Below, piece by piece: positions 2,807 to 18,083 of a stretch of DNA of 64,000 nucleotides. The stretch lies in NCBI GenBank assembly GCA_947253655.1, contig CAMYAE010000005.1, positions 5,078-69,077 of the forward strand, in the 5' to 3' direction. How positions within the stretch are numbered: the first letter of the stretch is position 1; every line of letters begins with the position of its first letter. Source of the DNA: an uncultured Bacteroidales bacterium (GTDB lineage: Bacteria; Bacteroidota; Bacteroidia; Bacteroidales; UBA932). Below the pieces are notes generated by a model, which was not told where the DNA came from, made no database searches, and saw only the letters and a list, made by a program, of their open reading frames with translations. Made by a program: the position numbers and the translations under genes.

Positions 2807-3183
2807 CTTTTATTAGATGTTGTTTGTGTATGAAGTTAAATTCGTCTTGTCTCAAATCATGGAACATGCCCGATATTTCTCAAATACTTCTATTATTAAT
2901 GAGTAAATATGACATAAAGTTAGCAATAAACCGTCATGAATGCGGACATAAACATTTAAAAGATATAAAATATTAATAGTTGTACTTATTTATTATTAAT
3001 AATCAAGGAAAAAACGTTAATTTTATACAATACGCAATATTTTAGTAATGAAGCAGACATTGACAGACTGAAAGTCGTTCTCGCTGAGCAGAGGCGAACG
3101 GACAGGAGGTGCACGCATATTGCACAGCCCGTTCTTTATTACCGGCTTCGGAGAGAAGATAGAACTGACAAAACAGGATTAGT

Positions 3184-4140
3184 ATGACTGTACCGGCAAA
3201 ATTCAAAGAGTATATCTGGCTTGTGAACACGATTCGCAAGGCTCGTAGGATTACATTCGCAGAAATCCAGGAAAAATGGTTGGACACAGACATGAGCGAA
3301 GGCGCAGAACTTGCCCGCTCTACCTTTGCCCGTCATAAGGATGCCATAGAGGACATCTTCGGCATCTATATAGACTGCGACCGTCAGAATGGCTATGAAT
3401 ACTATATAGGTAATGACTACGTTTTGAGAGAGGATAGTGTTCAGAACTGGATGTTGTCAACACTCTCCGTGAACAATGTTATCAGTGAATCTCTTTCTCT
3501 CCAAGACAGAATTTTGTTGCAAGAGGTTCCATACGAGGGCGAATATCTGAAACTGGTCATTGATGCCATGAAGAAGGGTGTCCGTGTTGCTGTTGATTAC
3601 AGAAAATATGGAACTGACAGGCCCAATCATCTTGACTTTGAGCCATATTGTATCAAAATGTTCAAGCAACGCTGGTATGTTCTCGGCCATTTCCATCGTG
3701 ATGCTACGGAGGAGAAGCCTGAGTCTGATTACTTTGGTTTGTTCTCTTTCGACCGTATCCAGAATATGACACTTACAGATATCAAGTTCCAAATAGATCC
3801 GGATTTTGATGCACAGTCATATTTCGACGAGTGTTATGGAGTTCTTGTCGGTGACGGAACGAAATCCGAGCGTATTGTCGTCCGTGCATATGGTTATGAA
3901 AGGTATTATATCAGGGATTTGCCTATCCACAAATCCCAACGTGAGATTGGCCAAGGTGAGAACTTCGCCGACTTTGAATTGTATATGCGTCCTACGGTTG
4001 ATTTGAGCGGCCATCTGTTAAGCCGTGGCAATCAGATTAAAGTCTTGTCACCGCAGTGGCTGGCTGATGAGCTCCGTGACATGCACTTGGAGGCCGCACT
4101 CATGTATGGTCGTGAAGAAAATGAGCAGGAACAAGAATAA
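3184..4140 (+). CDS. WYL-domain transcriptional regulator (wHTH-WYL-WCX, BrxR/CapW-like defence-island regulator)
   Basis: N-terminal wHTH (ITFAEIQEKW...), central WYL signature QRWYVLGHF, length 318 aa. Divergently transcribed from the large ATPase gene across a 377-bp AT-rich spacer. Confidence 0.7.
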   Translation: MTVPAKFKEYIWLVNTIRKARRITFAEIQEKWLDTDMSEGAELARSTFARHKDAIEDIFGIYIDCDRQNGYEYYIGNDYVLREDSVQNWMLSTLSVNNVISESLSLQDRILLQEVPYEGEYLKLVIDAMKKGVRVAVDYRKYGTDRPNHLDFEPYCIKMFKQRWYVLGHFHRDATEEKPESDYFGLFSFDRIQNMTLTDIKFQIDPDFDAQSYFDECYGVLVGDGTKSERIVVRAYGYERYYIRDLPIHKSQREIGQGENFADFELYMRPTVDLSGHLLSRGNQIKVLSPQWLADELRDMHLEAALMYGREENEQEQE

Positions 4141-4216
4141 TTTTTTGAGCCTGTCCCTCGTATTGAGACAATGTCAAGGTAATTTTACCTCCAAATAACA
4201 TTAACGTGCAGGTAAT

Positions 4217-4438
4217 ATGGACAAGAGTAAGGTAATACATTTAGAAAAAGCAAACACCCTGTCGAACTTCCTGACTAAGGAAGAGCGTGAGAACATTGTT
4301 TCTTTGAAAATTACCGGTTTCATGGGGGCTGATGATTTCTATGGTGTACTTGATGATATGTGTGACTCTTATGGCCAGTTTGATGAAAATGATGACTTGC
4401 CTGGAAATAAAAGTCTCGGAAATTCCACCGAATGTTAA
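4217..4438 (+). CDS. Small hypothetical ORF (73 aa) in gap between WYL regulator and SAH gene
   Basis: ORF track only; no recognisable motif; could be a gene fragment. Confidence 0.2.
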   Translation: MDKSKVIHLEKANTLSNFLTKEERENIVSLKITGFMGADDFYGVLDDMCDSYGQFDENDDLPGNKSLGNSTEC

Positions 4439-4610
4439 TGTGTTGCATTATTCAGCTCTTGATAGTCGGGATTTAGAACAGCTAATACTGCATTATGGCC
4501 TGGGGGAATTTGCTGATTATTAAGAGATGATGGTTATAAAAAGAATATGACAATGGGATGGGATGTAGTACAAATAGGATTAAGGCATAATTTGCCGGTC
4601 CACGATCCTT

Positions 4611-4835
4611 TTGCAACCGCAAAAGAAGTTGCAAGCAGATAACCTGAAAGAGTATGCCCGTTCTTTCCAATATCTTAAAGATACAAGTTGGGTCGAGGAG
4701 AATAAAAAAGAGGAATGGAAAAAGAATGCAAAACATATTAAGTTCCCCTCATATTTTCAAAATCAAATTGACCTGTCAAATGAAGATTTCGTAGAAGTTA
4801 TATTCGATGATTTCAGCGATATTGAAAAGTCATGA
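4611..4835 (+). CDS. Small hypothetical ORF (74 aa), K/E-rich
   Basis: ORF track only; no recognisable motif. Confidence 0.2.
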   Translation: MQPQKKLQADNLKEYARSFQYLKDTSWVEENKKEEWKKNAKHIKFPSYFQNQIDLSNEDFVEVIFDDFSDIEKS

Positions 4836-4966
4836 ACAGAGTATTGTGAAGATATTAAAAATAAATATCTTACCATCTACAAATAGAAAGGTTGGAAAGC
4901 GATAGAGGAATTATGTAAAAGAGATCGTTTGGCTTCCCTGTAAGGATAATATAAACTAAAATAAAT

Positions 4967-5494
4967 ATGAAAATAGGCAATGAGTATATCTCCTTGGAGA
5001 TAACATGCAAGCGGTCAACTGACTCTGATCCAATAAGTCAGGATACCGTAGAGAAATGTATCAAGATTGCTATGGCAGCCCATGAAGGACAGAGAGATAG
5101 AGATGGGAATGCCGTCATCCTTCATCCATTGTTAGTAGGCTCTATGGGGGAGACTGATGCAGAAAAGTGTGTCGGCTTTCTCCATGATGTGGTTGAAGAT
5201 ACTGACTGGACTTTTGACGACCTAAGAAACGAGGATGTCCCAGAAGAAGTTATCAAAGCATTAGAGTTATGTACGCACAAGGATGACCGGAATTATTATG
5301 ATTATGTGCAGAATATCATTGACTCTGGAAACATTACCGCTATTAATGTAAAACGAAATGATCTTTGCCACAACATTGCCAGAGGTAAGGCGTTCGGTTA
5401 CCCGGATTTGGTGGCAAAACATGAGAAAGCATTACAGATGATTGAAGGTTATTTGAAAAATAAAGATTCTTTTTACTGTTGTACCACGAAATGA
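4967..5494 (+). CDS. HD-domain (p)ppGpp hydrolase-like protein (small alarmone hydrolase / Mesh1-like, RelA-SpoT HD family)
   Basis: AMAAHEGQRDRDGNAVILHPLLVG ... FLHDVVEDT matches the RelA/SpoT hydrolase HD signature. 175 aa with no synthetase domain. Confidence 0.7.
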   Translation: MKIGNEYISLEITCKRSTDSDPISQDTVEKCIKIAMAAHEGQRDRDGNAVILHPLLVGSMGETDAEKCVGFLHDVVEDTDWTFDDLRNEDVPEEVIKALELCTHKDDRNYYDYVQNIIDSGNITAINVKRNDLCHNIARGKAFGYPDLVAKHEKALQMIEGYLKNKDSFYCCTTK

Positions 5495-5524
5495 GACAAC
5501 ATGTCTGTATCTTTCCATAAGTAA

Positions 5525-5914
5525 TTGAAGTCAAACCCTCAAAAAGGATTAGTTATGAAGGCAAAGAAGTTATTTTTCAAAGAGTGTCATCTCGCCGGTC
5601 GACAGTATCATGATGTGGATGAGGTTTGGGAAGATTTGCATGTGGGAACCTGTTTGGAATTACAGCGTGACTTTGACAACAGATATGACATGAATGCCGT
5701 TGCAGTAGTTTACAACACGATTGACGAAGATACAGGCAAGTCGGAGGAATACCTGCTTGGCTATATCCCCTGTGATGAGAATGAGACAATCGCTCAACTT
5801 CTTGAAATGGGGTGGAAGAATATCTTTGAGTGTCGCATTAGCAAAATAAACCCTGACGCACACTATGAGAATCAGATCCGTCTGACCATACGAATTGTCA
5901 GGAATGATAAGTAG
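5525..5914 (+). CDS. HIRAN-domain protein (stand-alone, 129 aa)
   Basis: LELQRDFDNRYDMNAVAVVYN....LGYIPCDENETIAQLLEMG fits the HIRAN core (L.REP.N.YD.NAI.V ... GYlP). Starts 30 bp after the SAH gene. Confidence 0.65.
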   Translation: MKSNPQKGLVMKAKKLFFKECHLAGRQYHDVDEVWEDLHVGTCLELQRDFDNRYDMNAVAVVYNTIDEDTGKSEEYLLGYIPCDENETIAQLLEMGWKNIFECRISKINPDAHYENQIRLTIRIVRNDK

Positions 5915-6314
5915 TATAATAGGACTATGAGGCGTAACAGTGCAAGCTGGGAGTACAGTGAACTGAAATGACAGCTACTAAGGATAAGTAGAAATACTTT
6001 CGCCATGAATGTCAGTTAAATGCATATTATAACGGTCATTAAAGTTAAGTCGTGGAGTCATATCCTTTTCCTTTTGGCGAGCAGAATAGTTCTTTGATAT
6101 GAGTGTATGAGTAAAAATCTGCCTCTATATTACGAATATCATATTGCTTGTAGAGAGGTGTATATAGCACATACAAACAAAATTATGACATTTAGTCTTT
6201 GGAGTTTCTGCTTAAAAGGGTTATGTGCAGAGTTAATTATTCAATGATGTACATTTTCTATATACAACACATCATTAAATAAATAAAAAGTCTTATCTTT
6301 GCATATTATATGAT

Positions 6315-6644
6315 ATGTTGACTATGGCGAAGAATACAATGGCTACTAAGTTGCCTCGGAAATTGGAGCAGAAGATGCAGATTGTAGGCGAGCAGATTAA
6401 GTTGGCTCGCTTGCGTAGAAATTTGAGTGTGGCTCAGGTGGCAGAACGGGCTACCTGTTCGCCGCTTACTGTGTCTCGTATTGAAAAAGGTATTCCTACT
6501 GTCGCGATAGGAATCTATTTGCGTGTATTGTATGCTTTGCAGCTCGAAGATGATATTTTATTGCTTGCCAAAGAAGATGAAATGGGTAGGGCGTTACAGG
6601 ATTTGAGTTTGAAAACAAGAGAACGAGCATCAAAAAAAGAATAG
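6315..6644 (+). CDS. hipB: XRE-family HTH regulator, HipB-like antitoxin component
   Basis: HTH_3 pattern IKLARLRRNLSVAQVAERATCSPLTVSRIEKG. Immediately upstream of HipA-homologous ORFs, 3-bp spacing. Confidence 0.7.
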   Translation: MLTMAKNTMATKLPRKLEQKMQIVGEQIKLARLRRNLSVAQVAERATCSPLTVSRIEKGIPTVAIGIYLRVLYALQLEDDILLLAKEDEMGRALQDLSLKTRERASKKE

Positions 6645-6647
6645 GCT

Positions 6648-6932
6648 ATGAGAGGGTTGTATGTATATGCCGATTTCGATTGGCTCAAAGAAGTGGAACT
6701 CATAGGCGAATTGGGCTATGAGTCTCTTCGAGGTGCAGACAGCTATAGCTTTACGTTCAATAATGAATGGTTAGGACAACACGGTGATCTGTTTTTGAGT
6801 GATGATTTGAACAATTATCCGGGACAGCAATACACACAGCCTGACAAGGACATATTCGGATGCTTTTCCGATGCCTTGCCGGATCGTTGGGGACGTACTT
6901 TGTTGTTAAGACGAGAACAAATCGCGGCATAG
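6648..6932 (+). CDS. hipS: HipS-like protein (HipA N-terminal subdomain as separate 94-aa ORF)
   Basis: HipA N-terminal couple_hipA-like sequence (...FSDALPDRWGRTLLLRRE). Ends at TAG, in the same frame as the downstream kinase ORF. Confidence 0.6.
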   Translation: MRGLYVYADFDWLKEVELIGELGYESLRGADSYSFTFNNEWLGQHGDLFLSDDLNNYPGQQYTQPDKDIFGCFSDALPDRWGRTLLLRREQIAA

Positions 6933-6956
6933 GAAGAAAATAGGCCGGTACGGAGA

Positions 6957-7931
6957 TTGTCGTCTTTCGATTTCTTAACCGGTATCGATGATTTCTTTCG
7001 GATGGGCGGGTTCCGTTTCAAGGAAGACCCTGATGACAAATTTATCAATGTAAGTGAATCACTGAAAATCCCCCCTCTGACAGATATCCGGGAGTTGATT
7101 GTTGCCAGTGCAGAGATTGAGAAAAGCGAAGAAAACAATATGCTCCCTGACAGGAAATGGATTGCACAGCTTGTGCAACCCGGAACATCATTGGGCGGTG
7201 CAAGACCTAAAGCAAATGTGATAGATGTAGATAAGACTCTTTATGTAGCCAAGTTCCCGTCTCGTCAGGATGATTATGATGTAGGACTTTGGGAGCATTT
7301 CAGCCACGTACTATCTATAAAAGCAGGAATAAATGCAGCTAAAACCAAAGTGCTGGCGGCAGGAGAAAAATATCATACACTGCTATCGCAACGCTTCGAC
7401 AGAACTCAAGAAGGAAAACTTATTCATTTTGCATCTGCTATGACCCTATTGGGGTTGAGTGATGGAGATAATGCAGCAAGTGGGCATGGCTATTTGGACA
7501 TTGTTGATTTTATAATTCGGAACTGCACAGATGTCGAGAAAAATCTGCAGGAACTCTACCGCCGTGTAGCCTTCAATATCTGTATAGGCAATAGTGACGA
7601 CCATTTCCGGAATCATGGTTTTCTTTTAAAGGCAAAGGGATGGACATTGTCTCCTGCATACGACATGAATCCCACTCTTAATGAGTATCAAAGCCTGCTA
7701 ATCTCTTCTACTTCCAACAAGGCAGATTTAAGTATCTTATTGGATGCTTGTGAGGAGTATATGCTCAACAGGAATAAGGCAGAGAAAATTGTATCAGAGG
7801 TGGTTGAAGCAGTGAAAGGATGGCGAGAATTGGCAACGCGATTAGGAATCTCCAAGAGAGAAATGGATATGTTTGCCGGAGTGTTGGATAGACGATATGA
7901 TAGTATGTTTAATTTCTCAATTCAAATTTGA
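6957..7931 (+). CDS. hipT: HipT-like Ser/Thr kinase (HipA C-terminal kinase core)
   Basis: HipA_C motifs: GTSLGGARPKANV, VAKFPSRQDDYDVGLWEHFSHVLSIKAG, NSDDHFRNHGFLL, LSPAYDMNP. Confidence 0.7.
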   Translation: MSSFDFLTGIDDFFRMGGFRFKEDPDDKFINVSESLKIPPLTDIRELIVASAEIEKSEENNMLPDRKWIAQLVQPGTSLGGARPKANVIDVDKTLYVAKFPSRQDDYDVGLWEHFSHVLSIKAGINAAKTKVLAAGEKYHTLLSQRFDRTQEGKLIHFASAMTLLGLSDGDNAASGHGYLDIVDFIIRNCTDVEKNLQELYRRVAFNICIGNSDDHFRNHGFLLKAKGWTLSPAYDMNPTLNEYQSLLISSTSNKADLSILLDACEEYMLNRNKAEKIVSEVVEAVKGWRELATRLGISKREMDMFAGVLDRRYDSMFNFSIQI

Positions 7932-8118
7932 CAAGGAGGAAATAACTATGAGTAGGGGATGTATTGATAGGAGCATATACGCAATGCGTGAGATTGCTGA
8001 TACTATTTAGCATGATATTGCGGGGGTTTTACAACCAAAGCCGGAGAAAGTTCAAGAGGACTATTGGACTATTTACGAGAAAGATTGCTTTGGCTCATAT
8101 CATTGTTATAAGGACTAC

Positions 8119-8337
8119 ATGATTTTTGTGAACTATGAAGATGCAGAATCTCTTCTTCTAAGAGATAAAACCATTGTCAAGGCAGAACAAAAATTCACAG
8201 ATCGACGATTCTTTGATGATGGGGTGATTTTCCAATCGAAAAAGCGATATAGGTCCGACACTCCTTATGGTGAACAAATGTCAGTATTACACGCAATCCA
8301 TCATTGTCATTATGACCATTATCCCTATGAAGCTTAA
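8119..8337 (+). CDS. Hypothetical small ORF. The same frame continues for 47 more codons after a TAA (8338-8480).
   Basis: ORF track only. His/Tyr-rich C-terminus. Possible remnant. Confidence 0.15.
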   Translation: MIFVNYEDAESLLLRDKTIVKAEQKFTDRRFFDDGVIFQSKKRYRSDTPYGEQMSVLHAIHHCHYDHYPYEA

Positions 8338-8555
8338 GTATTGGAACAGTCAGAAGTGACTATAGATGCAAAGAAGGAGGCATATCGGCAAATTCGTATT
8401 GCAGAGATATACGCTGAGCGAGTTGATTGGACGATGAGTGGCGATGATAGCGAAGATTGCTTCCGTGAACGAATCAAGTAAGATAGATATTCCGGCGGAT
8501 AGTCGGCCACCGATTCCGGTGATACTCGGCCACCTGAGTTAGATTTGCAAAGATA

Positions 8556-8960
8556 TCAATATTTCTTTCTCATGCTATCTCCCTTAAGCTCGAAGCGTAG
8601 TGATTTGTGTACGATTCTGTCCAGACAGGCCTCTGCAAGCATCTCGCTGCTGAAGACTCCGTACCAGTCGGCGACTGCCAGCTGGCTGGACAGGATCAGC
8701 GATTTTCTGTGATACCTGTCATCGATGATCTGCTCGAAGTCGTTCTGCTGCTGCCTTTCGAGACACTTCATCCCGAAGTCATCTATTATGAGCAGGTCCG
8801 GGGATATTGACCGAATACTTGTTCTCCTGCAACTCCTGGCACTGCTCAAGGCTCTCGTTTTCAAAATTGAAACGGCCTTTCAATGATCCCTCTTTGAGGA
8901 ACTTGGATATGTTGTCAAGGGCAATGTGTACAAGTATTACACCGATTATTGAGGCAAGCA
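8556..8960 (-). pseudogene. istB: IS21-family IstB helper ATPase, C-terminal fragment (frameshifted; N-terminal part including Walker A missing)
   Basis: ...PDLLIIDDFGMKCLERQQQNDFEQIIDDRYHRKSLILSSQL...DRIVHKSLRFELKGDSMRKK matches the IstB C-terminus. Upstream part readable only in a second frame. Truncated where the IS256-like copy begins. Confidence 0.6.
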
Positions 8961-8982
8961 TATAAAGCCAGATGTTCAATCG

Positions 8983-9604
8983 GATACTGTTTCAAAAAGT
9001 GTGTCTGAGAAGAGCTAAAAAAGAAAGTCTACGGATTTCTTTGTGTTTGTAAACACAAAACAAGAACTCTAAAAAAACGTAGACTTATGTATTTCACAAA
9101 GGAACAACTTTCCGAGGTATTATGCAAGCATGCGGAAAGAGAAAATGGTATCCAGGACCTGCTGGAGATAATGATTGAGAGTATGCTGGTCGCTGAAAGG
9201 TCCGAATACCTGCGAGAGGATGCATTGCCTGGTAATAAGAGAAACGGGTACAGAATGGGTCACACCTACGGTCAGGGACGGGCTCTTATATTCCGTATAC
9301 CCCGATATAGGTATGGCAACTTTCATCCTCAGATACTGGCTGTCCTGCACAATCAGGAGGACGAATGCGAGTGCTTGGCCGGCACCCTGTATGGCAAGGG
9401 CCTGACTCAGGAGCAGGTTGGCGAGGTGTTCAACGACATCTATGGGGAACACTACGGCAAGGCAAGCATTTTGAGGATGCCGGATTACCTTCGGAAAGAT
9501 GTCCAGGAGTGGCTGGGCCGCAGTTTGGACGCTTACTCTCCGAATCCTGTTCATAGATTGTGTGCACATCAAGACACACCGCAAACAATAATCTATGAAA
9601 GGGA
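8983..9604 (+). mobile_element. IS256-family (mutator-type) element, ~0.6 kb internal-deletion derivative, copy A
   Basis: Left terminus GATACTGTTTCAAAAAGTGTGTCTGAG. Encodes a transposase N-terminal 150 aa (GYRMGHTYGQGRALIFRIPRYRYGNFHPQ...) which then breaks off. The right end ...AAGACACACCGCAAACAATAATC resembles the inverse of the left IR. Near-identical inverted copy at 18457-19058. Confidence 0.65.
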
Positions 9605-9632
9605 ATTTTTCTTTTATATGTCTGTTGAGTGA
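9087..9632 (+). pseudogene. IS256-family transposase, N-terminal fragment only
   Basis: Transposase_mut-like N-terminal region. Similarity to copy B stops after ...GRSLDAYSP. Confidence 0.6.
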
Positions 9633-9869
9633 AAGCATAAATTCGCTTGGTTCATACAAAAAATCATATTTCAAATCTTCATTTAATTTGTATTTCCCGT
9701 ATGAAACTCTGATGATTTTGTTCTCTGCAAGCATCCTATTCAAAAGCACAACAAGAGAACCTTCTGATATGTTTTTCATACCAGAACGCACCGCATTCAG
9801 CAGGTCTTTTCTTGTGAATAGCCCGTTCTGTTTCCGAGCAATATCTATTATTTGATTTACAGTTGTCAT
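9605..9869 (-). pseudogene. AbiEi-like (type IV TA antitoxin) N-terminal wHTH remnant, truncated by IS insertion
   Basis: MTTVNQIIDIARKQNGLFTRKDLLNAVRSG...IIRVSYGKYKL matches the AbiEi_4 N-terminal domain pattern. After ~88 aa the reading frame runs antisense into the IS256-like element. The 249-aa track ORF 9120..9869 is this chimera. Confidence 0.5.
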
Positions 9870-9989
9870 TGTTGTTCTTGAATTATACTTTATCCTGTTT
9901 TACAATTCCTACTACCTTGCTATTTTACCTATTTATATTATCACAATATTGTGAACTTATTCAGCAGTACGTATGCTTACCTTGATTCG

Positions 9990-10640
9990 CCCTGGGAAGC
10001 AACCTTCGAGCAGCTTCCTGCGTATGTCACAGCAGATCTCCCAGTCCCGCGAGGCGGAAACCAATCCCATCAGGACTGCTTCGGTATGGGAGTGTGCCAC
10101 CTTGATAGAAAGATATTTACGATGAATCGCCGTGTAGCAGTATTCTGGGATACCGGCCGATAGCCTTTAGCCTTAGGGAAGATGAGTGGCAGCACCACGG
10201 GTAAGATTTCCGGAGCAAACCTCTTCACCTGTCTGAACTACTGGATTGTCGCCTGCGATGGCTCTCCGGAGACCAACCCGCCCACTCTCGTGTGTCGAGA
10301 ACCCTTCCTCTGCCACCATTGTGTGCCATTGCAACGTCTTAACCTTCAAGCTTGACCAAGCTATCGCTGATATAAGCGGTATCTTCCTAGGCATCGAGGC
10401 TTCCGAAAGTCAGTCCAATGGTGTGAGCCGTGCCCACAGCAAGTCCGCACAGATCAAGATGGTCGAAGTTTCCGAAGCCACCGCAATCGTCCTCTCCTTG
10501 CCGACAACATTGCCAAAAAAGGCATGCCCAGCACTACGCTGCTCCGAAGATTTTCTTCCGCTACTACTACGTCAACTACTCCACCTGTGAGAAGTCAGGC
10601 ATTATGCTGGCGGAGACCACCTGGACCGCTGGTGAATAGA
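9990..10640 (+). pseudogene. Degraded paralogue (copy A) of the secreted-protein gene at 15540-16300; multiple frameshifts
   Basis: ~70% nucleotide identity with the reverse complement of 15540-16300. Conserved peptide segments (ATFEQLP / IEASE / KIFFRYYYVN...EKSG) lie in three different frames. Confidence 0.45.
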
Positions 10641-10767
10641 TCAAATCTATGTAGTTCTCCCGGAAATTCTAAACCAATCCCTTTGCAGCTTTAGCGATTA
10701 CAGAGTGATTCATTTATCATTTTCGTGACCTCACGAAAATGATCCAAATGCTCTTAAGTGAGTTGTT

Positions 10768-11634
10768 TTACCTATTTTTCGGAAGCTTTGCAGAAGCCTT
10801 CTCAATCTTCTTCTGTTCTGAGGCGACTCGACGTTCTAATTTTTTAATATCCTCGGCGGGCGGTAATTCTTCCGGACGAATACCTCGTTGGCCTAACATA
10901 TCACGCACACTTTTATTATTTTGCATGTGTTCACGAGTAATGGTTGGCTCACCATATAGATTCTTCCCCTTGACATTATAATTAGTCATCTCTGTTGCCA
11001 GGTTTTTGGCTGCTATGGTCAGGGTAGGGAGAAAGTCAGCCAAAGGCCGATTATCTTTGACACCGAGACGTTTTTTCATATCCTCGGTAGTATGTCCACC
11101 AAATAGAACTGCATCACCCTTCGAACGAATTCTGCCAAATCCCTTATCATCGACTCCTCGCTCATAGATATGTTGAGATAGTTGCTTCTCAGACGCACGA
11201 AGTCTATCCCGAGATTCAAGGCGTGCAATGTAGTTAAGGCGTTCTTCAATTAATTCAGCTTTACGTGTCTGAACAGCAAAATAACTTTGTGCAAAGGCTA
11301 TCTCTTCTTTCTTTGGATCGCCATTCTGAGCAATCAAGTAACATGCAAATCTTGTTAGCATGTAATCCTTGATGTCACGTTCCGCTCCTTTGGCAAGGGT
11401 TATCATTTTCGTGACTTCACGAAAATGATCGTCAACATTGATTCCCTGAGTATTACATGACTCAACAGCTCTATTGATGGCTGTCTGGAAATTCTCCCAT
11501 CTGGCATACCCGAGAACCTTTTGAAGATCTCTTGCAAACCAAACTTCGACTTGTTCATTTCCGTTGTCGCTTTCAATGTATGTGGCAATACTATCAAAAG
11601 CAGATTTGTATTGAATGATAATCTTTTTATCCAT
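10768..11634 (-). CDS. dinD: DNA-damage-inducible protein D-like (Bro-N / DinD family)
   Basis: WFARDLQKVLGYARWENFQTAINRAVESCNTQGINVDDHFREVTKMI...YLIAQNGDPKKEEIAFAQSYFAVQTR matches the DinD N-terminal pattern (RDLQ..LGY..W..F..AI.RA..SC). Confidence 0.7.
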   Translation of the reverse strand: MDKKIIIQYKSAFDSIATYIESDNGNEQVEVWFARDLQKVLGYARWENFQTAINRAVESCNTQGINVDDHFREVTKMITLAKGAERDIKDYMLTRFACYLIAQNGDPKKEEIAFAQSYFAVQTRKAELIEERLNYIARLESRDRLRASEKQLSQHIYERGVDDKGFGRIRSKGDAVLFGGHTTEDMKKRLGVKDNRPLADFLPTLTIAAKNLATEMTNYNVKGKNLYGEPTITREHMQNNKSVRDMLGQRGIRPEELPPAEDIKKLERRVASEQKKIEKASAKLPKNR

Positions 11635-11766
11635 TTCCTAAGTACGTTAATATGCGAATTTACTGATTTTTCCCATACCCTACAATGTTTAAACAGAAAT
11701 AATAGAAGACTTCTGCTGATATTGGCTACGGTAGCCAGTGACATCGTTGAGCAGGTTGAAACGTCC

Positions 11767-12619
11767 TTATATCTGACACGAATTCGAGCCGCCGCCAATG
11801 ATAGAGGCATCGTTAGGTACGCGAATATGGACCACGGCGGAATCACACGATGCGTCCGCGAGATAATTCCGAAGCATACACGGGTGACAACCCTTGCCTG
11901 ACATGGTCAGTTGGAGTTTGGCCTGCAGACGATACCGCCCCGGATACTCTTCACCGCTGGGAGAGCGGAACATCAGCTTGGTCTCGGAACACGTGGCGTC
12001 CAGTAGCAACCGCTTGAGGGCGTCAAGGTCCTTAACGTTGTCGAATTTGAGACAACGGTATCCGCTGTGCTCCACCAACTTGTCATTGACCCGCTCTGAG
12101 ACGACTCCAGAGAAGGTGCTATAGGCGAAGTAGGACGCCTTATAGTTGTGTCTCGTGTTCTTGTCCTCGATGGAGTGCAGTTTCTCGGTCTCGGCCTGAG
12201 CGTAGTGACCGGTGATGTAGTTCCAGTCATCTAGCAGCGTGCTGGACTTGTGGGAAGTCTTGTTGGTGGCTGGAGCCTTGAAGAAAGAGAAGGAGGGGAG
12301 CGGCTTTACCGGGACCGCGTTGCAGCCGAATGGACTGTAGCCAGCCTCAGGCAGGAGATAGAGGTCTTCGTTGATGGGCGATGAGCAGATCCTGTCCGTC
12401 TTTCTTCCAGTACAACTTTGCGAAGTCAAAGCAGTAGCCATCGGTGATGGCGTCGAACTGGTCTTTGTGTCGGGCGATTTCATCGGAGAGTTTCTGCTCC
12501 GCATGAAGTTTTTCCGTACAGGCGTGGAGGGTCTTGCTGCCATCGGCAAACGGATTCCTGTAGATGCCGCATTCGCGACCGGAGATTTTCATCACGATTC
12601 TGCCGGCAGTTCCTGCCAT
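11767..12619 (-). pseudogene. Hypothetical protein, apparently frameshifted (N-terminal 12619-12347 in one frame, C-terminal 12230-11767 in another)
   Basis: Protein-like N-terminus MAGTAGRIVMKISGRECGIYRNPFADG... and protein-like C-terminus ...LKFDNVKDLDALKRLLLD... are joined only by a frame change near 12340-12360. No family recognised. Confidence 0.35.
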
Positions 12620-12818
12620 TTGCTATTTTCCGATGCATACTTTGCGAAGGATTGATACTCAATAATATAGCAAAGTTGTGATACAAATGTGGTACATTGT
12701 TCAATGATAGCAAAAATTGATATTAATTGCTTGTTGAAATGTTCCAATATGCGAAGATACAAAAACATTTTTTCCACTGAAGATATTTAGGTAACTTTGC
12801 GTATCTAAGCGTTGTAAT

Positions 12819-13925
12819 ATGAACATTGATGTAAATAAACTCTTTGCTTCTAGCGATCTTGAATGCAAGGTCGTTGCCGGATGGACTATCGTTAATAAGC
12901 TTGCTGCACCTGACAAAAGTAAAAATGAAACTGGAGGGAATTTCTCAACATGTTACAAAGTTGAGAAGGATGGCGTGGTTGCCTTTATGAAGGTCCTTGA
13001 TTATGCCAAGATTATGATGCTATATGGTCAACTCACACCCCAGATAATGCAGCGTGCATCATCTGAATTTAATTATGAGAAGGCCCTTTCTGAATACTGT
13101 GTAAATAGACGTGTTTCTAAAGTCGTTCATTATATTGAGTCCGGGGATGTTCTGCTCGATGGTTATATAGTCAATGGTAGCGTCTCATTTATTATTTATG
13201 AGATGGCAGATGGTGATATTCGTAAGGTCCTTGATTTGTCCTCTAAAGCCGAATTGGCGGCAAGGATTAATTCTCTGTCAACAAAGTTGAATTCGCTCCA
13301 CGATGTGTCTGTTGGGTTAAGTCAACTTCATATGAATGATATTTCACATCAAGATATTAAGCCATCCAATATCCTCTCGATTAAAGGCGAATCCAAAATC
13401 GGAGATCTGGGTAGATCAATATGTTTTGATTCCAGTGTAAGTTGCCCTTATTCTGCTCTCTTTAATGGAGATAAAAATTATGCCGCCCCAGAATGCTATT
13501 ATCCGGACTTTGTAAGTAGTATAGAAAGCCTCTATCAGATTGATAATTATATGCTTGGCGGATTAATTGCTTACTATATAACTGGACTTACTTTCAATGC
13601 GTTGATGAACAATCATCTTCCTGACGTGCTTCAATTTTCTAAATTTCGGAGTATTCAGACACAAACATATTGCAATGTTTTGCCAGATATGATGAATGCA
13701 TACCAGAAAGCGCTTAAAGACTTCGAGAACGAAATTCCAATAGATGAGGTTAAAGTCGGGCTAGTGTCCCTTGTCGCATATCTGTGTAATCCAGACCCAA
13801 ACCGACGTGGTCACCCAAAGAATGTATTGGAGACATCCCGCACGCCAAATTATGATTTGCAGAGGACAATACAGGAACTTGATGTTTTGCAGAAGAAAGC
13901 TGAGTTGGCTTTAATTAAGAAATAG
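12819..13925 (+). CDS. Eukaryotic-like Ser/Thr protein kinase (stand-alone kinase domain, 368 aa)
   Basis: Complete ePK motif set: VAFMKV (VAxK), HQDIKPSNIL (catalytic loop), IGDLG (DFG-like), YAAPE, DNYMLGG. No TM segments. Low-GC gene. Confidence 0.8.
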   Translation: MNIDVNKLFASSDLECKVVAGWTIVNKLAAPDKSKNETGGNFSTCYKVEKDGVVAFMKVLDYAKIMMLYGQLTPQIMQRASSEFNYEKALSEYCVNRRVSKVVHYIESGDVLLDGYIVNGSVSFIIYEMADGDIRKVLDLSSKAELAARINSLSTKLNSLHDVSVGLSQLHMNDISHQDIKPSNILSIKGESKIGDLGRSICFDSSVSCPYSALFNGDKNYAAPECYYPDFVSSIESLYQIDNYMLGGLIAYYITGLTFNALMNNHLPDVLQFSKFRSIQTQTYCNVLPDMMNAYQKALKDFENEIPIDEVKVGLVSLVAYLCNPDPNRRGHPKNVLETSRTPNYDLQRTIQELDVLQKKAELALIKK

Positions 13926-13926
13926 T

Positions 13927-15453
13927 ATGGCATCATTTAAGGAGGATGAGAAAAGAAACGTAGTCCCTAACTGGAGAGATTACAATAAGACCGCTAAACT
14001 CGGTGAGTTTGGCAGTTCTCCTATTGCTACCCAACCTCTTGAACTGTTCCCTATAGACGAATATGTTGTAGCCTGGCAGAATAATAAGAGTGTATCTTTT
14101 GCTGGCGATTTACTGTCAGCCGCCATTTTGAATGGACATCAATCAAACCCATATGCAATAGAGGCCGCTAAATTTGTGATCGCTCACAAAGATGAGGCTA
14201 CGAATGTTCTTGTAAGGACTGCACAATCGGTGATTGCGACACCGGAAGAAAAGGCTGCTGCTGCTCAATTGACAGTCCCTCAAAAAATAGCTCAGATCCA
14301 AAATCAAGAAGAAGCTGTTCGAAATGAAATAAAGTTGCTTAAACAAAGCCGAGACTACTGCTGCTATAATCCGATTGCTTTTTGTGAAATGGCCAGGTGC
14401 TATGTTACACTGGGACAATTTGACAAGGCAAAAGAGGCTATGGAAGTGGCTCTCCATCTTGCACCAAATCATAGATACATTTGCCGTTCTGCCGCTCGTC
14501 TCTATCTTCACCTTATGGATGAGGACCGTGCAAGATATATTATTGCCAAGAATCCAGCATTACTCCACGATCCATGGCTTCTTGCATCAGAAATCGCTGT
14601 TAATACATTAATGGGCAGAACTTCTCGCCACATCAAAAAAGGTTCAGAGCTGATTGCTTCTCAGAATTACTCTCCTTTTAGCATTAGTGAACTTTCAAGC
14701 GCTATTGGTTCTGTTGAAATGATTAATGGCAACAAAAAGAAGTGTCGTTCATATTTCAAAACTGCTTTACAAAAGCCAAATGACAATAGCCTTGCGCAGG
14801 CAAGGTTCCTTCTTTCTAAAAACGCCGACTTGACTTTTGAATTCGGAGATGATATTGCTATTCCTAACGCTTTTGAAGCTGATGCGATTACCGCATATAT
14901 CTCAGACGATTACGCCAAATCATTAATTACAGCAGTTGATTGGATTGAAGATATGCCTTTTACAAGAAGGCCTGTCCAGTTCGCAGCAAATATTGCATAT
15001 TCATTCTTAAAGGACTATGGTACTGCCATCGATATTCTTGACCTGGGGCTGAAGTCTAATCCCAATAATCCTATGCTCTTGAATAATAAGGCGTATGCGT
15101 GTGCCTTATCTGGTAAAACACTTGAAGCGGAGCGAGCTATTCAGGAAGCCAAAAAGTTGCAGTTACCCCCGGATGCACAGGTCTGTCTGATTGCTACAGA
15201 AGGATTAACGGAATATAGAAAAGGCAATATCGATGAAGGGCGTAGATTATATACTGAAGCAATACAGTTAGCAAAGTCGTCTTTCCCTGATCCTCGCATT
15301 GCGAATACTGCTCTTTTGAATTTTACAAGAGAAGAAGCTCGGGCTGATGAAGCTTTTGATAAATCAGTTCTTGATGTCATAGACAAGATCCCCAATGATT
15401 GCAAGGAAACTGTTCAGTTAAAAATGGACATTAAAGCCGAAATTAAAGATTAG
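13927..15453 (+). CDS. TPR-like helical repeat protein (508 aa), translationally coupled to the kinase
   Basis: ATG lies 1 nt after the kinase TAG (AAATAGTATGGCA). Repeated amphipathic helix pairs (…LGQFDKAKEAMEVALHLAPNHRY…, …LGLKSNPNNPMLLNNKAYA…). Confidence 0.7.
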   Translation: MASFKEDEKRNVVPNWRDYNKTAKLGEFGSSPIATQPLELFPIDEYVVAWQNNKSVSFAGDLLSAAILNGHQSNPYAIEAAKFVIAHKDEATNVLVRTAQSVIATPEEKAAAAQLTVPQKIAQIQNQEEAVRNEIKLLKQSRDYCCYNPIAFCEMARCYVTLGQFDKAKEAMEVALHLAPNHRYICRSAARLYLHLMDEDRARYIIAKNPALLHDPWLLASEIAVNTLMGRTSRHIKKGSELIASQNYSPFSISELSSAIGSVEMINGNKKKCRSYFKTALQKPNDNSLAQARFLLSKNADLTFEFGDDIAIPNAFEADAITAYISDDYAKSLITAVDWIEDMPFTRRPVQFAANIAYSFLKDYGTAIDILDLGLKSNPNNPMLLNNKAYACALSGKTLEAERAIQEAKKLQLPPDAQVCLIATEGLTEYRKGNIDEGRRLYTEAIQLAKSSFPDPRIANTALLNFTREEARADEAFDKSVLDVIDKIPNDCKETVQLKMDIKAEIKD

Positions 15454-15460
15454 AAAAATA

Positions 15461-15497
15461 CGCCCGCCTCGATTCGCATCGGAGCGGGTGTTTTCGA
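15461..15497 (+). terminator. Weak putative rho-independent terminator after the kinase-TPR operon
   Basis: GCCCGC-N16-GCGGGT hairpin (one G-U pair) followed by GTTTTCG. Confidence 0.3.
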
Positions 15498-15539
15498 TAA
15501 GAATACCCTTGCGGGAAGGTGGAATCCACGCTGAACTAC

Positions 15540-16272
15540 ATCAGCTTGCCCTGGGCGAGGATTTCTCCTGACTTTTCGCCGGTTGCGGTGTTGACGAAGA
15601 AGTACTTGAAGAAGACCTTCGGATCTCCGGCAGAAGGAGTGCCACACTTGGCCTCGTAGCTGGACTTGATGTCGATAGCATCGGTGGACGGAGTGACAGG
15701 TGCACCAAATGTGGCAGCTTTGCCGTAAGCACGAGTGATACCGTTGCCCTGAGGTTCGGAAGCCTCGATGACGAGCTTGAGGTTGGTGGTGTCAGCTGGA
15801 GCGCTGGAGAGAGTAAACGTAATAGTACTTGAACTGATGACAATGACAGCGGGTGCAGGTGCCTCGACACCGGTGAGAGTAGGAGGGTTGGCCATTACGG
15901 AACCGCCACAGTAGACTACCCAGTAGTTGAGCCTCATAATGAGGTTCGCACCGGAAATCTTGCTTTTGGTGCCGAGAACCGACTTGCCTTTCTGGGTATT
16001 GTGCATTGGTGAGACCCTTCCAGCCCTGCGAGAGCTGATTGAAGGTTGCCTTGACGGAAGACGGTACCGCCGATGCCGAAGGAGTGATTTCTTGAAGTAG
16101 AGAGCCCTGAAATCACTGAGAAAGCACACAGCTGTGCTGCTAAGGCTGCGGATAAAGACAGGAATCTCGACACCTCTACTGTATTACCAAGCGGAGCGAG
16201 TTTTGAAAGACCGGAGGTTTGTCGATCGGAGTGAAACGGAGAGCGCCAAAATTCCGGTTCCGCTCTGCCCAT
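15540..16272 (-). pseudogene. Secreted-protein paralogue copy B (signal-peptide-like N-terminus). The coding sequence is spread over 3 frames, so it is either frameshifted or carries sequencing errors.
   Basis: N-terminus RFLSLSAALAAQLCAFSVISG (signal peptide-like). C-terminal 130 aa are intact in one frame (...IEASEPQGNGITRAYGK...KVFFKYFFVNTATGEKSGEILAQGKLM). A middle segment (KATFNQLSQGWKGL) is only in a third frame. Confidence 0.45.
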
Positions 16273-16331: not shown

Positions 16332-18083
16332 TTAAATATTCCCTTGGTATATAACCTTTACGTTAGGATGTGCAAGTAGTTTCTGCATGTAAGACCCTTC
16401 AAAGCCGTCCATAGTACTGATGGCTTCAAAATTCCCAAGGATTATAAGTTTACATTTAGCCCTTGATAACGCGACATTCAACTTATTAGGATTGTACAAA
16501 AAATCAGATAGTTCGTTGATGTAATCTATATTGCCTGATGTCAAAGAAATAATAATAACCTCTCTTTCTTGACCTTGCAATTTATCTATAGTATCAACTA
16601 CTATTCCTCTCTTGTATTCATCCGCTATCATATCATCCTTGAATAGTTTTCTGCGTATTTCACTGCATTGAGCTCTAAAGGGTGCTAAGACGCCTATTCT
16701 GTTACAACTAAATCCAGCAGAGAAATACTCTCTTATAATAGCGTCAACTTCAACAGCTTCGCACGTTGATGATTGACGACCATTGCCTGAGATGTTCTTT
16801 GCAATTATGGAATAATCTCCTGATAGGTATTCACTATCGATATCTATAGATAGCCTTTTATCTGGATTGTATGATTTAAGTTTACCATCATAGAATAGGT
16901 CTGATACAACTTCACAGATAGGACCATTCATTCTGAATGATGTGTCAATCATCATGCAGTTCTTCTCACTCAACATATAGTTGAATACGGATTGCTTCAG
17001 TGGTTCGACAATGTTTTCAGCCTTGATTATAGGTGTTAACTGCTTATGATCACCGCATAATATGAGTTTCTTGCAATTGAAAGCGGCCATCATTGCCACC
17101 GGGATACTCATCTGTCCAGATTCATCAATTATAACTGTATCAAACTTAATCCCCTCGGCTCTGGATGAGTAGAAAGTATAAGGAGTCATTCCCATTACAA
17201 GGTTTGTCAACTCATTTACACGACCAACGTCAAGATAACAAGATATATTATTAATGGTCAAGGTTTTATCACCTGATACAAAAGAAAGACCAGCCGTCTG
17301 AAATGGATAACCGACTTTTAATATACCTTCGACATGACTAGGAAGGATTTCCCCGATTTTTACGAGAGCGTTGTTGATGGCCATATAGTTTGGTCCAGTA
17401 ATACATACTCTTTCACCAAGTTCGAAAGCCAAAATTATTGCAATAAGAGCTATGACAAACGATTTTCCTGTACCTGGAGGGCCTTGTAGCATATAGTAAT
17501 CTTTGGCGGCAAATGCTCTCGCGATAGCCTCTCTTTGTGACTCCAAAAGAGTCATGCCCAATTCCTGCTCTACTGTCTGGATATGTTGTTTCCAGACATC
17601 AACATCTACATCAAAAACCACATCTTGCTTCGATGGAATGATACTGCTATTCCAGAATGGGGAATCTTCACTCGGAAGATCTAACATAAATCGTCTGTAC
17701 GATGAAGCGAGGAAGTTTCCATATTGCTTTTCTACAACAACTTCTTTTCCATCATCAAAGCAGTGCATTGGTATGCCAGCTCTACCCCAGAATCCTATTA
17801 TTAGATTTTCCTCGTTATCATAGTCCCAGATTGTAGCCTCGTAGCCGTTGACCAAAACAGCATCTCCTACACCTAGTGATGAGTGGTTTGTATCAACTAT
17901 AAAACGACATAATCCATAATCGCCAGAAGACTTGGAATAATTTCTGTCGTAACGTAGGCCAACAATCGCTTTCCTTGCCTTGACTTTTTCTTTAATCGAA
18001 AGCTTTCTGTATGAATCTATCTCCCTCTGTGATTGAGCATGCTCCTCGTCAATGAATTGCTGTAAATCTTTTCTTGTAATCAT
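16332..18083 (-). CDS. Upf1-like SF1 helicase (AAA_11/AAA_12, DNA2/NAM7 type) with ~190-aa unknown N-terminal domain
   Basis: GPPGTGKS (motif I), VIIDESGQ (II), TSFRMNGPICEVVSDLFYDG (IV/V region), VDTIDKLQGQEREVIIISL, NVALSRAKCKLIILG (VI). Confidence 0.8.
   Translation of the reverse strand: MITRKDLQQFIDEEHAQSQREIDSYRKLSIKEKVKARKAIVGLRYDRNYSKSSGDYGLCRFIVDTNHSSLGVGDAVLVNGYEATIWDYDNEENLIIGFWGRAGIPMHCFDDGKEVVVEKQYGNFLASSYRRFMLDLPSEDSPFWNSSIIPSKQDVVFDVDVDVWKQHIQTVEQELGMTLLESQREAIARAFAAKDYYMLQGPPGTGKSFVIALIAIILAFELGERVCITGPNYMAINNALVKIGEILPSHVEGILKVGYPFQTAGLSFVSGDKTLTINNISCYLDVGRVNELTNLVMGMTPYTFYSSRAEGIKFDTVIIDESGQMSIPVAMMAAFNCKKLILCGDHKQLTPIIKAENIVEPLKQSVFNYMLSEKNCMMIDTSFRMNGPICEVVSDLFYDGKLKSYNPDKRLSIDIDSEYLSGDYSIIAKNISGNGRQSSTCEAVEVDAIIREYFSAGFSCNRIGVLAPFRAQCSEIRRKLFKDDMIADEYKRGIVVDTIDKLQGQEREVIIISLTSGNIDYINELSDFLYNPNKLNVALSRAKCKLIILGNFEAISTMDGFEGSYMQKLLAHPNVKVIYQGNI

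What the first reader, a model, noticed from the sequence alone, without database searches (positions are those of the whole stretch)
6315..7931. HipB-HipS-HipT type tripartite toxin-antitoxin; hipS and hipT are in the same frame separated by a single TAG
Gene order is XRE-HTH (109 aa), HipA N-subdomain (94 aa), HipA kinase core (324 aa) with 3-bp and 24-bp spacers. This reproduces the described split-HipA (HipBST) organisation, in which the small N-terminal piece is a separate protein. Here the two HipA-derived ORFs are exactly in frame (6957-6648 = 309 nt) and interrupted by one amber codon (6930-6932). So this is either a very recent nonsense split of a canonical hipA or a genuine hipS/hipT pair. 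TAG is a normal stop elsewhere in the window (hipB and the kinase at 13923), so code reassignment is unlikely.
Basis: partly seen in the sequence, partly recalled or inferred. Interest (0 to 1): 0.55.

Follow-up and report, generated by a model that had tools for sequence, protein, structure and literature searches.

The report
hipA toxin gene killed by nonsense mutation
This is an ordinary two-gene hipB-hipA toxin-antitoxin module in which one base change (TTG to TAG) has cut the toxin gene in two, so it is a young pseudogene and not a three-gene HipBST system.

Summary
hipB is at 6315-6644. A 94-codon ORF (6648-6932) ends in TAG. A HipA_C kinase ORF (6957-7931) follows in the same frame.

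It is not a HipBST system. All 208 full-length homologues collected are single fused HipA proteins of about 413-437 aa with hipB directly upstream, including 80 loci from species-representative genomes across Bacteroidales.

Three syntenic loci from other samples are decisive. They are 99.1-99.6% identical to the window over 6.5-12.9 kb and carry an intact 427-aa hipA with TTG (Leu) at this codon. The split is therefore a single T-to-A change at 6931.

The TAG allele is real: it was assembled independently from at least six samples.

Downstream of the TAG, the TAG-bearing lineages show 10 nonsynonymous to 2 synonymous codon changes, against 7:23 elsewhere (p = 0.001). These include F117 and L258, which no intact homologue has.

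The stop also falls inside N-subdomain 1, roughly 25-40 residues before the point where genuine HipS proteins end.

Verdict: a recently nonsense-inactivated hipA next to a retained hipB. Low interest.

The parts
6294..6301 (+). TATCTTTG, which matches the Bacteroides-type -7 promoter consensus TAnnTTTG. It lies 14 nt upstream of the hipB ATG and is the likely operon promoter.
   Evidence: Pattern scan. It is the only match between 6101 and 7867 on the + strand. The consensus is from established knowledge of Bacteroides promoters, not tested here. This is a weak, sequence-level inference.
6315..6644 (+). hipB: a 109-aa XRE/HTH antitoxin and regulator gene, intact.
   Evidence: Pfam HTH_31 E = 1.9e-8 and HTH_3 E = 6.8e-6. 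NCBIfam couple_hipB subfamily gives a weak hit. A hipB homologue lies directly upstream of hipA in nearly all of the 80 relatives' loci. Lineage-specific changes in the TAG-bearing copies (window 6, L003 1) are 6 synonymous to 1 nonsynonymous.
6648..7931 (+). hipA pseudogene: the whole 427-codon frame of a fused HipA kinase toxin, interrupted once.
   Evidence: The read-through translation is 87-90% identical over 97-100% of its length to fused 416-437-aa HipA proteins. It is about 98% identical to the intact 427-aa proteins P0131 and P0134 from syntenic loci.
6648..6932 (+). 5' remnant ORF (94 aa): the first roughly three quarters of HipA N-subdomain 1. It is not a complete HipS-like domain.
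   Evidence: The Couple_hipA match covers profile positions 9-76 of 99 only. In the intact P0131 the same match runs across codon 95 to residue 103. hhalign to E. coli HipA places codon 95 at about HipA R78, while HipS chains align up to HipA 103-108.
6930..6932 (+). Premature amber codon (codon 95). The inactivating change is T to A at 6931, relative to TTG (Leu) in the orthologues.
   Evidence: Column comparison: the window and L003 have TAG; L088, L089 and L090 have TTG. All 80 species-representative loci have sense codons here (GCG, CAA, ATG, TCG, AAG and others). The same TAG was assembled from at least six independent samples.
6933..7931 (+). Untranslated, or at best poorly translated, 3' part of hipA. 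It holds the rest of N-subdomain 1, N-subdomain 2 and the kinase core. The ORF callable from TTG 6957 or ATG 7002 lies within it.
   Evidence: HipA_C E = 9e-45. Kinase motifs are still readable in the sequence: Gly-rich loop SLGGARPK, GNSDDHFRNHG and SPAYDM (aligned to Legionella HipT). TAG-lineage-specific changes here are 10 nonsynonymous to 2 synonymous.
6997..6997 (+). S117F substitution, private to the window allele.
   Evidence: Ser occupies this position in 99% of 208 intact homologues and Phe in none. The intact orthologues and L003 have TCT.
7420..7420 (+). R258L substitution, private to the window allele.
   Evidence: Arg occupies this position in 100% of 208 intact homologues. The intact orthologues and L003 have CGT.

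Best explanation
The locus is a canonical bicistronic hipBA type II toxin-antitoxin module of a family that moves between Bacteroidales genera. It sits in a chromosomal defence and mobile-element island of an uncultured Bacteroidales bacterium.

In this lineage a single T-to-A transversion at 6931 changed codon 95 of hipA from TTG (Leu) to TAG. Translation from the hipA start now ends after 94 residues, inside N-subdomain 1. The kinase part has no start signal of its own that selection has kept, and it is drifting as a pseudogene.

hipB is intact and still looks constrained. It probably continues to work as a DNA-binding autoregulator, and possibly as an antitoxin against related HipA copies.

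Shown here: the anatomy, the ancestral sense codon, the fused state of all relatives, the reality of the allele, and the excess of replacement changes downstream of the stop. Inferred: that no functional kinase is made, and that hipB is still functional.
For: 1. All 120 best hits among 8000 homologues are fused proteins of 416-437 aa carrying HipA_C, most of them also with Couple_hipA.
2. All 80 species-representative genome loci have an uninterrupted hipA with a sense codon at position 95. hipB lies directly upstream in nearly all of them.
3. Syntenic loci L088, L089 and L090 share the window's neighbours (WYL, HIRAN, hipB, IstB fragment, Bro-N, Pkinase, TPR). They are 99.55%, 99.59% and 99.10% identical to the window over 12.9, 6.5 and 11.5 kb. 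They encode an intact 427-aa HipA with TTG at codon 95.
4. The TAG allele occurs on at least 8 contigs from at least 6 samples, built with different assemblers. It occurs in two different left-flank contexts.
5. Codon changes specific to the TAG lineages in the part downstream of the stop are 10 nonsynonymous to 2 synonymous. All other classes (hipB, the N part, and the changes among intact alleles) total 7:23. Fisher p = 0.001; for the window alone it is 4:1, p = 0.026.
6. The window's F117 and L258 are absent from 208 intact homologues, where Ser is 99% and Arg 100%. The second TAG allele, L003, has Q177R, P178H and G184A in or next to the Gly-rich loop, plus R206P.
7. The stop is inside the Couple_hipA domain, not at a domain boundary.
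8. TAG is a normal stop here and the window has no suppressor tRNA.
9. The neighbourhood holds other gene remnants: an IstB C-terminal fragment and an IS256-type transposase fragment.
Against: - The kinase catalytic motifs are still intact in the window copy. An in-frame TTG (6957) or ATG (7002) could allow some reinitiation, so a truncated kinase cannot be excluded from sequence alone.
- The substitution counts are small.
- Differences between the window and L088 are confined to two patches, hipBA and the IS256-like fragment. Recombination with other alleles, rather than clock-like mutation, therefore contributes to the differences.
- L003 is a short metagenomic contig of unknown coverage.
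- The 94-codon N part shows no lineage-specific change at all. That is uninformative, but it is not what simple neutral decay would predict (about 3.5 changes expected at the rate seen in the C part).
Confidence: 0.9

Rival explanations
1. Nascent functional split. The nonsense mutation has created a working HipS-like antitoxin (94 aa) and a HipT-like kinase (309-324 aa, reinitiated at TTG 6957 or ATG 7002). This would be a new tripartite HipBST-like system caught at birth.
For: - The gene order HTH, N-terminal piece, kinase core resembles hipBST.
- The literature proposes that hipBST and hipBA are related by a split or a merger (PMC8262856).
- The allele persists in several samples and strains.
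- Catalytic motifs are still present in the window copy.
Against: - The stop cuts N-subdomain 1 roughly 25-40 residues before the point where real HipS proteins end. By alignment to HipA, what is lost corresponds to part of the helical region and the fifth beta strand described for HipS.
- Replacement changes pile up downstream of the stop, including at invariant positions and, in L003, in or next to the Gly-rich loop.
- None of the 208 full-length homologues collected is split.
- No promoter-like motif lies in front of the C ORF, and no start site there has been shown to be maintained.
Confidence: 0.04
2. Leaky stop. Full-length HipA is still made at a low level by natural read-through or suppression of the TAG, so the module remains a weakened hipBA system.
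For: The frame is preserved and only one stop intervenes. Low-level amber read-through is known in bacteria (established knowledge, not tested here).
Against: - The window has no suppressor tRNA, and TAG terminates 8 of 19 large ORFs.
- The excess of nonsynonymous changes downstream argues that the full-length product is no longer under selection.
- R258L and S117F hit invariant residues.
Confidence: 0.04
3. Sequencing or assembly artefact. The TAG is an error in the consensus of a metagenome-assembled contig.
For: The host is known only from metagenome-derived contigs. hipBA is a multi-copy, mobile family, so it is prone to mixed assemblies. Mismatches to L088 cluster in hipBA.
Against: The identical TAG was assembled from at least six independent samples with MEGAHIT-, SPAdes- and Logan-type assemblies. 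One of these alleles (L003) differs at 29 other positions.
Confidence: 0.01

Closest known systems
Canonical HipBA type II toxin-antitoxin module (E. coli K-12 HipB/HipA; NCBI name 'type II toxin-antitoxin system HipA family toxin'), specifically the Bacteroidales hipBA family found in Bacteroides fragilis, B. caccae, Parabacteroides, Alistipes and others
   Same: - An HTH hipB sits 3 bp upstream of hipA.
- Couple_hipA and HipA_C domains are present.
- The Gly-rich loop, the catalytic DxHxxN motif and the Mg-binding YD motif are all readable.
- The read-through is 87-92% identical in protein sequence to annotated HipA family toxins.
   Different: hipA carries a premature TAG at codon 95 and private substitutions at invariant residues, so it is a pseudogene copy. 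The family is only distantly related to E. coli HipA: a single-sequence search of solved structures found Shewanella HipA at E = 6e-4 and no E. coli HipA chain.
HipBST tripartite system (E. coli O127:H6 HipB/HipS/HipT, PDB 7AB3-5; Legionella pneumophila HipBST, PDB 7VKB, 8EZR)
   Same: The order of the three ORFs is HTH, then an N-terminal HipA-like piece, then the kinase core. The best solved-structure sequence match of the kinase part is Legionella HipT, at E = 1.2e-9 over the C-lobe only.
   Different: - In HipBST the split is a conserved feature of a separate kinase clade.
- HipS is a complete N-subdomain 1 of about 103 aa.
- HipT has its own N-terminal mini-domain and its own start (PMC8262856, PMC10627512).
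- Here the split is a single-lineage point mutation inside the subdomain. Orthologues are fused, and the downstream part is decaying.

Membership tests
HipBA (bicistronic HipA-family kinase toxin with HipB) | HipA_C kinase core domain with Gly-rich loop, catalytic motif and Mg-binding motif | tested here: met
   PF07804 E = 8.7e-45, covering profile positions 1-210 of 213. SLGGARPK, GNSDDHFRNHG and SPAYDM are readable and align to the corresponding Legionella HipT motifs.
HipBA (bicistronic HipA-family kinase toxin with HipB) | N-terminal Couple_hipA domain (N-subdomain 1) on the same polypeptide as the kinase core | tested here: not met
   The domain is present (PF13657, 26.5 bits against a cut-off of 22.5), but the TAG at codon 95 cuts it off from the core. 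In the intact orthologue P0131 it is continuous. The locus is a member by descent and a pseudogene by state.
HipBA (bicistronic HipA-family kinase toxin with HipB) | HTH (XRE-type) hipB immediately upstream in the same operon | tested here: met
   HTH_31 E = 1.9e-8 with a 3-bp spacer. The same arrangement holds in nearly all of the 80 related loci.
HipBA (bicistronic HipA-family kinase toxin with HipB) | Kinase toxicity (phosphorylation of an aminoacyl-tRNA synthetase) neutralised by HipB | not testable with these tools
   Needs expression and growth assays. The target of this Bacteroidales family is unknown to me.
HipBST (tripartite) | Three separate genes in the order hipB-hipS-hipT | tested here: inconclusive
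   Three ORFs lie in that order. The second and third are one gene's frame, split by one stop codon.
HipBST (tripartite) | HipS is a complete N-subdomain 1 of about 100 aa, with a five-stranded sheet, three helices and a fifth strand at its C-terminus | tested here: not met
   The 94-aa ORF covers Couple_hipA positions 9-76 of 99. Codon 95 aligns to about HipA R78 (weak alignment, E = 0.0056, anchored by the LPD, FDxL and Gly-rich-loop motifs). HipS chains 7ab3_B, 7vkb_B and 7czo_A reach HipA 103-108. The HipS architecture is taken from PMC10627512.
HipBST (tripartite) | The HipT kinase belongs to a clade of kinases that all lack N-subdomain 1 | tested here: not met
   All 208 full-length relatives collected (75-98% identity) are fused HipA proteins. 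Similarity to HipT chains is remote: E = 1e-9 for Legionella and E = 1e-3 for E. coli, over the C-lobe only.
HipBST (tripartite) | The split state is conserved among orthologues | tested here: not met
   Syntenic orthologues L088, L089 and L090 are fused, with TTG at codon 95.
HipBST (tripartite) | HipS neutralises HipT; HipB only augments this and regulates transcription | not testable with these tools
   Needs co-expression assays.

The most novel reading that the evidence does not exclude
The TAG allele is a natural snapshot of the first step by which a fused hipA becomes a split hipS/hipT pair. In this reading the truncated N-terminal peptide and a reinitiated kinase core are both made and interact in trans, and the allele spreads because the split changes how the toxin is regulated.
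Probability: 0.04. Interest if true: 0.55.

Novelty: already known. Interest (0 to 1): 0.1.

Why it matters
It matters little beyond correct annotation. The two ORFs should be annotated as one hipA pseudogene with an internal stop, next to an intact hipB, and not as a HipBST system.

The intact (TTG) and nonsense (TAG) alleles segregate in otherwise near-identical islands of one uncultured Bacteroidales species. This is a clean small example of toxin loss with antitoxin retention in a mobile toxin-antitoxin module.

It also warns that in-frame adjacent 'HipS-like' and 'HipT-like' ORFs can imitate a tripartite architecture.

Tried and rejected
- **Structure prediction.** I predicted the structure of a fused homologue (P0009 with a 14-sequence alignment) to locate codon 95 in the fold. 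The model failed (mean pLDDT 36, pTM 0.22) because the alignment is too shallow at 87-92% identity. I ran no fold search and drew no conclusion from it.
- **Direct search of solved structures with the N-terminal 140 aa.** This found only chance hits, with E of 0.6 or more. I replaced it with a weak profile alignment to E. coli HipA 1-185. That sequence was first verified as identical to PDB 3DNT_A.
- **hhalign in global mode.** It gave a meaningless alignment.
- **TAG reassignment or suppression.** Rejected.
- **A functional link between hipBA and the upstream HIRAN-domain gene.** HIRAN domains are tied to some Hip kinase families in PMC8262856. Rejected here, because neither the HIRAN gene nor the 175-aa gene next to it accompanies hipBA in any of the 80 other loci.
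- **Host identification.** The MnmE search gave only 'Bacteroidales bacterium' MAG names. The nearest other cluster is 73% identical.

Full report
**1. The observation**

- An ATG-initiated 109-codon ORF at 6315-6644.
- A 94-codon ORF at 6648-6932 ending in TAG (6930-6932).
- A 324-codon ORF from TTG 6957 to 7931.

Translating 6648-7931 gives one 427-codon frame with a single internal stop.

Pfam assigns HTH_31/HTH_3 to the first ORF. It assigns Couple_hipA (the HipA N-terminal domain) to the second, but only over profile positions 9-76 of 99. It assigns HipA_C to the third, E = 8.7e-45.

**2. What the relatives look like**

I searched the read-through protein against the large protein collection. 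It returned 8000 homologues, and the 120 best (87-90% identity, 97-100% coverage) are all single proteins of 416-437 aa. Where a source names them, the name is 'type II toxin-antitoxin system HipA family toxin' from Bacteroides fragilis, B. caccae or Cryptobacteroides.

A scan of species-representative genomes gave 80 loci in Parabacteroides, Alistipes, Muribaculaceae, Odoribacter, Phocaeicola, Bacteroides, Prevotella and others, at 75-92% identity.
- Every locus has an uninterrupted hipA.
- Every locus has a sense codon at the position of the window's TAG: GCG 22, CAA 20, ATG 10, AAG 5, TCG 5, and others.
- hipB lies directly upstream in nearly all of them.

This is a canonical two-gene hipBA family. 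The host's MnmE is only 73% identical to its nearest other cluster, and the few named hits are Bacteroidales MAGs. The high cross-genus identity of hipBA therefore indicates horizontal spread.

**3. Orthologous loci in near-identical strains**

An exact-sequence look-up placed the 94-aa, 324-aa and 309-aa products in one 90% cluster together with two 427-aa proteins, P0131 and P0134. These equal the window's read-through except for a few residues and have Leu at position 95.

Their contigs (L088, L089, L090) have the same neighbours as the window: a WYL regulator, a 73-aa gene, a 175-aa gene, a HIRAN gene, hipB, hipA, an IstB fragment, Bro-N, Pkinase and TPR. They are 99.55%, 99.59% and 99.10% identical to the window over 12.9, 6.5 and 11.5 kb.

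At codon 95 they read TTG where the window reads TAG. The split is therefore a single T-to-A transversion at 6931.

**4. The TAG allele is real**

The exact 94-aa product is encoded on at least 8 contigs from at least 6 samples built by different assemblers (L001-L006). Most are identical to the window in the hipBA region. L004 differs at 2 positions and L003 at 29, and both keep the TAG. L002 has a different left flank. An assembly or sequencing error is excluded for practical purposes.

**5. State of the two halves**

I polarised changes using the three intact orthologues. Codon changes specific to the TAG-bearing lineages in the part downstream of the stop are 10 nonsynonymous to 2 synonymous (window 4:1, L003 6:1).

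All other classes together are 7:23. These are hipB in all lineages, the N part, changes shared by both TAG copies, and polymorphism among the intact alleles. Fisher p = 0.001. Against hipB in the same lineages (1:6), p = 0.006.

The window's private S117F and R258L hit positions that are Ser in 99% and Arg in 100% of 208 intact homologues. L003's private Q177R, P178H and G184A lie in or next to the Gly-rich loop (QPGTSLGGARPK), and R206P is also at an invariant position.

This is the signature of relaxed constraint on the kinase part, while hipB stays constrained.

Caveats:
- The numbers are small.
- L003 is a short contig of unknown coverage.
- The window and L088 differ only in two patches, hipBA (27 sites, 6230-7700) and an IS256-like fragment (30 sites, 9150-9434), plus one other site. 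Part of the variation therefore probably comes from recombination with other copies of these multi-copy sequences.
- The run of synonymous differences at 6423-6434 in hipB looks like such a recombination tract.

**6. Where the stop falls relative to a real HipS/HipT junction**

In the intact P0131, the Couple_hipA match runs through codon 95 to residue 103, profile position 84 of 99. The residues after the stop (EE(K/N)RPVRRLSSFDFLTGIDDFSRMGGFRFKE) are among the best conserved in the family.

I verified my copy of E. coli HipA 1-185 as identical to PDB 3DNT_A. The same search showed that HipS chains align up to HipA residues 103-108: 7ab3_B, 7vkb_B and H. influenzae HI_0666 (7czo_A).

A profile alignment of the family to HipA 1-185 is weak (E = 0.0056). 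It is collinear, however, and is anchored on LPD, FDxL and the Gly-rich loop. It places codon 95 at about HipA R78.

According to the HipBST structure paper, HipS has four strands (residues 1-52), three helices (53-94) and a fifth strand (95-102) (PMC10627512). By these alignments, the 94-aa ORF lacks the counterpart of about the last 25-30 residues of a real HipS, which corresponds to part of the helical region and the fifth strand. Measured in this family's own numbering, the missing stretch is roughly 25-40 residues. The stop is inside the subdomain, not at the junction.

An AlphaFold model meant to show this directly failed (pLDDT 36).

**7. Other readings**

TAG is an ordinary stop here. 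It ends 8 of 19 large ORFs, and carB, ftsH and relA/spoT are intact. The window has no tRNA gene.

The + strand has a Bacteroides-type -7 motif (TAnnTTTG) at 6294-6301 in front of hipB. There is none between it and 7868. The window holds no second hipA copy.

**8. Verdict**

This is a canonical hipBA module whose toxin gene was recently inactivated by a nonsense mutation. The locus works, at most, as an orphan hipB regulator or antitoxin beside a decaying hipA.

The residual novel reading is a nascent functional split of the kind hypothesised for the origin of hipBST (PMC8262856). Sequence alone does not exclude it. It is disfavoured by the position of the stop and by the substitution pattern, and I give it about 4%.

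Noticed in passing
window 8556-8864 (-) and 9087-9632 (+), overlapped by ORF 9120-9869 (-): There are gene remnants just downstream of hipA. One is an IstB_IS21 fragment covering only profile positions 146-233 of 238. The other is an IS256-type (Transposase_mut) fragment covering positions 20-158 of 379. A 249-aa ORF on the opposite strand has a sub-threshold AbiEi_4 match at its N-terminus. The region looks like decaying mobile-element debris.
   Followed up: partly
window 2995-15931 compared with L088: The 58 mismatches over 12.9 kb are not spread out. 27 lie in hipBA (6230-7700), 30 lie in the IS256-like fragment (9150-9434), and 1 lies elsewhere. The remaining roughly 11 kb are identical. 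This suggests gene conversion or recombination with other copies of these multi-copy sequences, or mixed assembly of such copies.
   Followed up: partly
window 4967-5494 (+) and 5525-5914 (+): Upstream of hipB are a 175-aa protein and a small HIRAN-domain protein (E = 3.6e-10). The 175-aa protein has only a sub-threshold HD_4 (RelA/SpoT-type HD) match (E = 0.048), although an HDVVED-like motif is visible. HIRAN domains are linked to some Hip kinase families in the literature. Here, neither gene accompanies hipBA in the 80 other loci, so the adjacency looks incidental.
   Followed up: partly
window 1-25000: hipBA sits in a chromosomal island that ends next to mnmE (25819-27288). The island contains a large helicase-like gene running off the window start (faint ResIII match), a WYL/WCX regulator, Bro-N, a Pkinase plus TPR pair (12819-15453), an SF1 helicase (16332-18083), an McrB-like ATPase (21394-23022) and a Dcm methylase (23027-24241). 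It looks like a defence island. Housekeeping genes (carB, ftsH, relA/spoT, tamL) follow.
   Followed up: partly
window 6644: hipB ends in TAG in the window, but in TAA in L003 and in all three intact orthologues. This is a synonymous change of stop codon private to the window lineage.
   Followed up: no
L003 positions corresponding to window 7890-7907: The last 18 bases of this TAG-bearing contig differ from the window at 11 positions. This is probably a switch to another C-terminal variant of the family, whose C-termini vary, or a contig-end artefact. I excluded it from the substitution counts.
   Followed up: no
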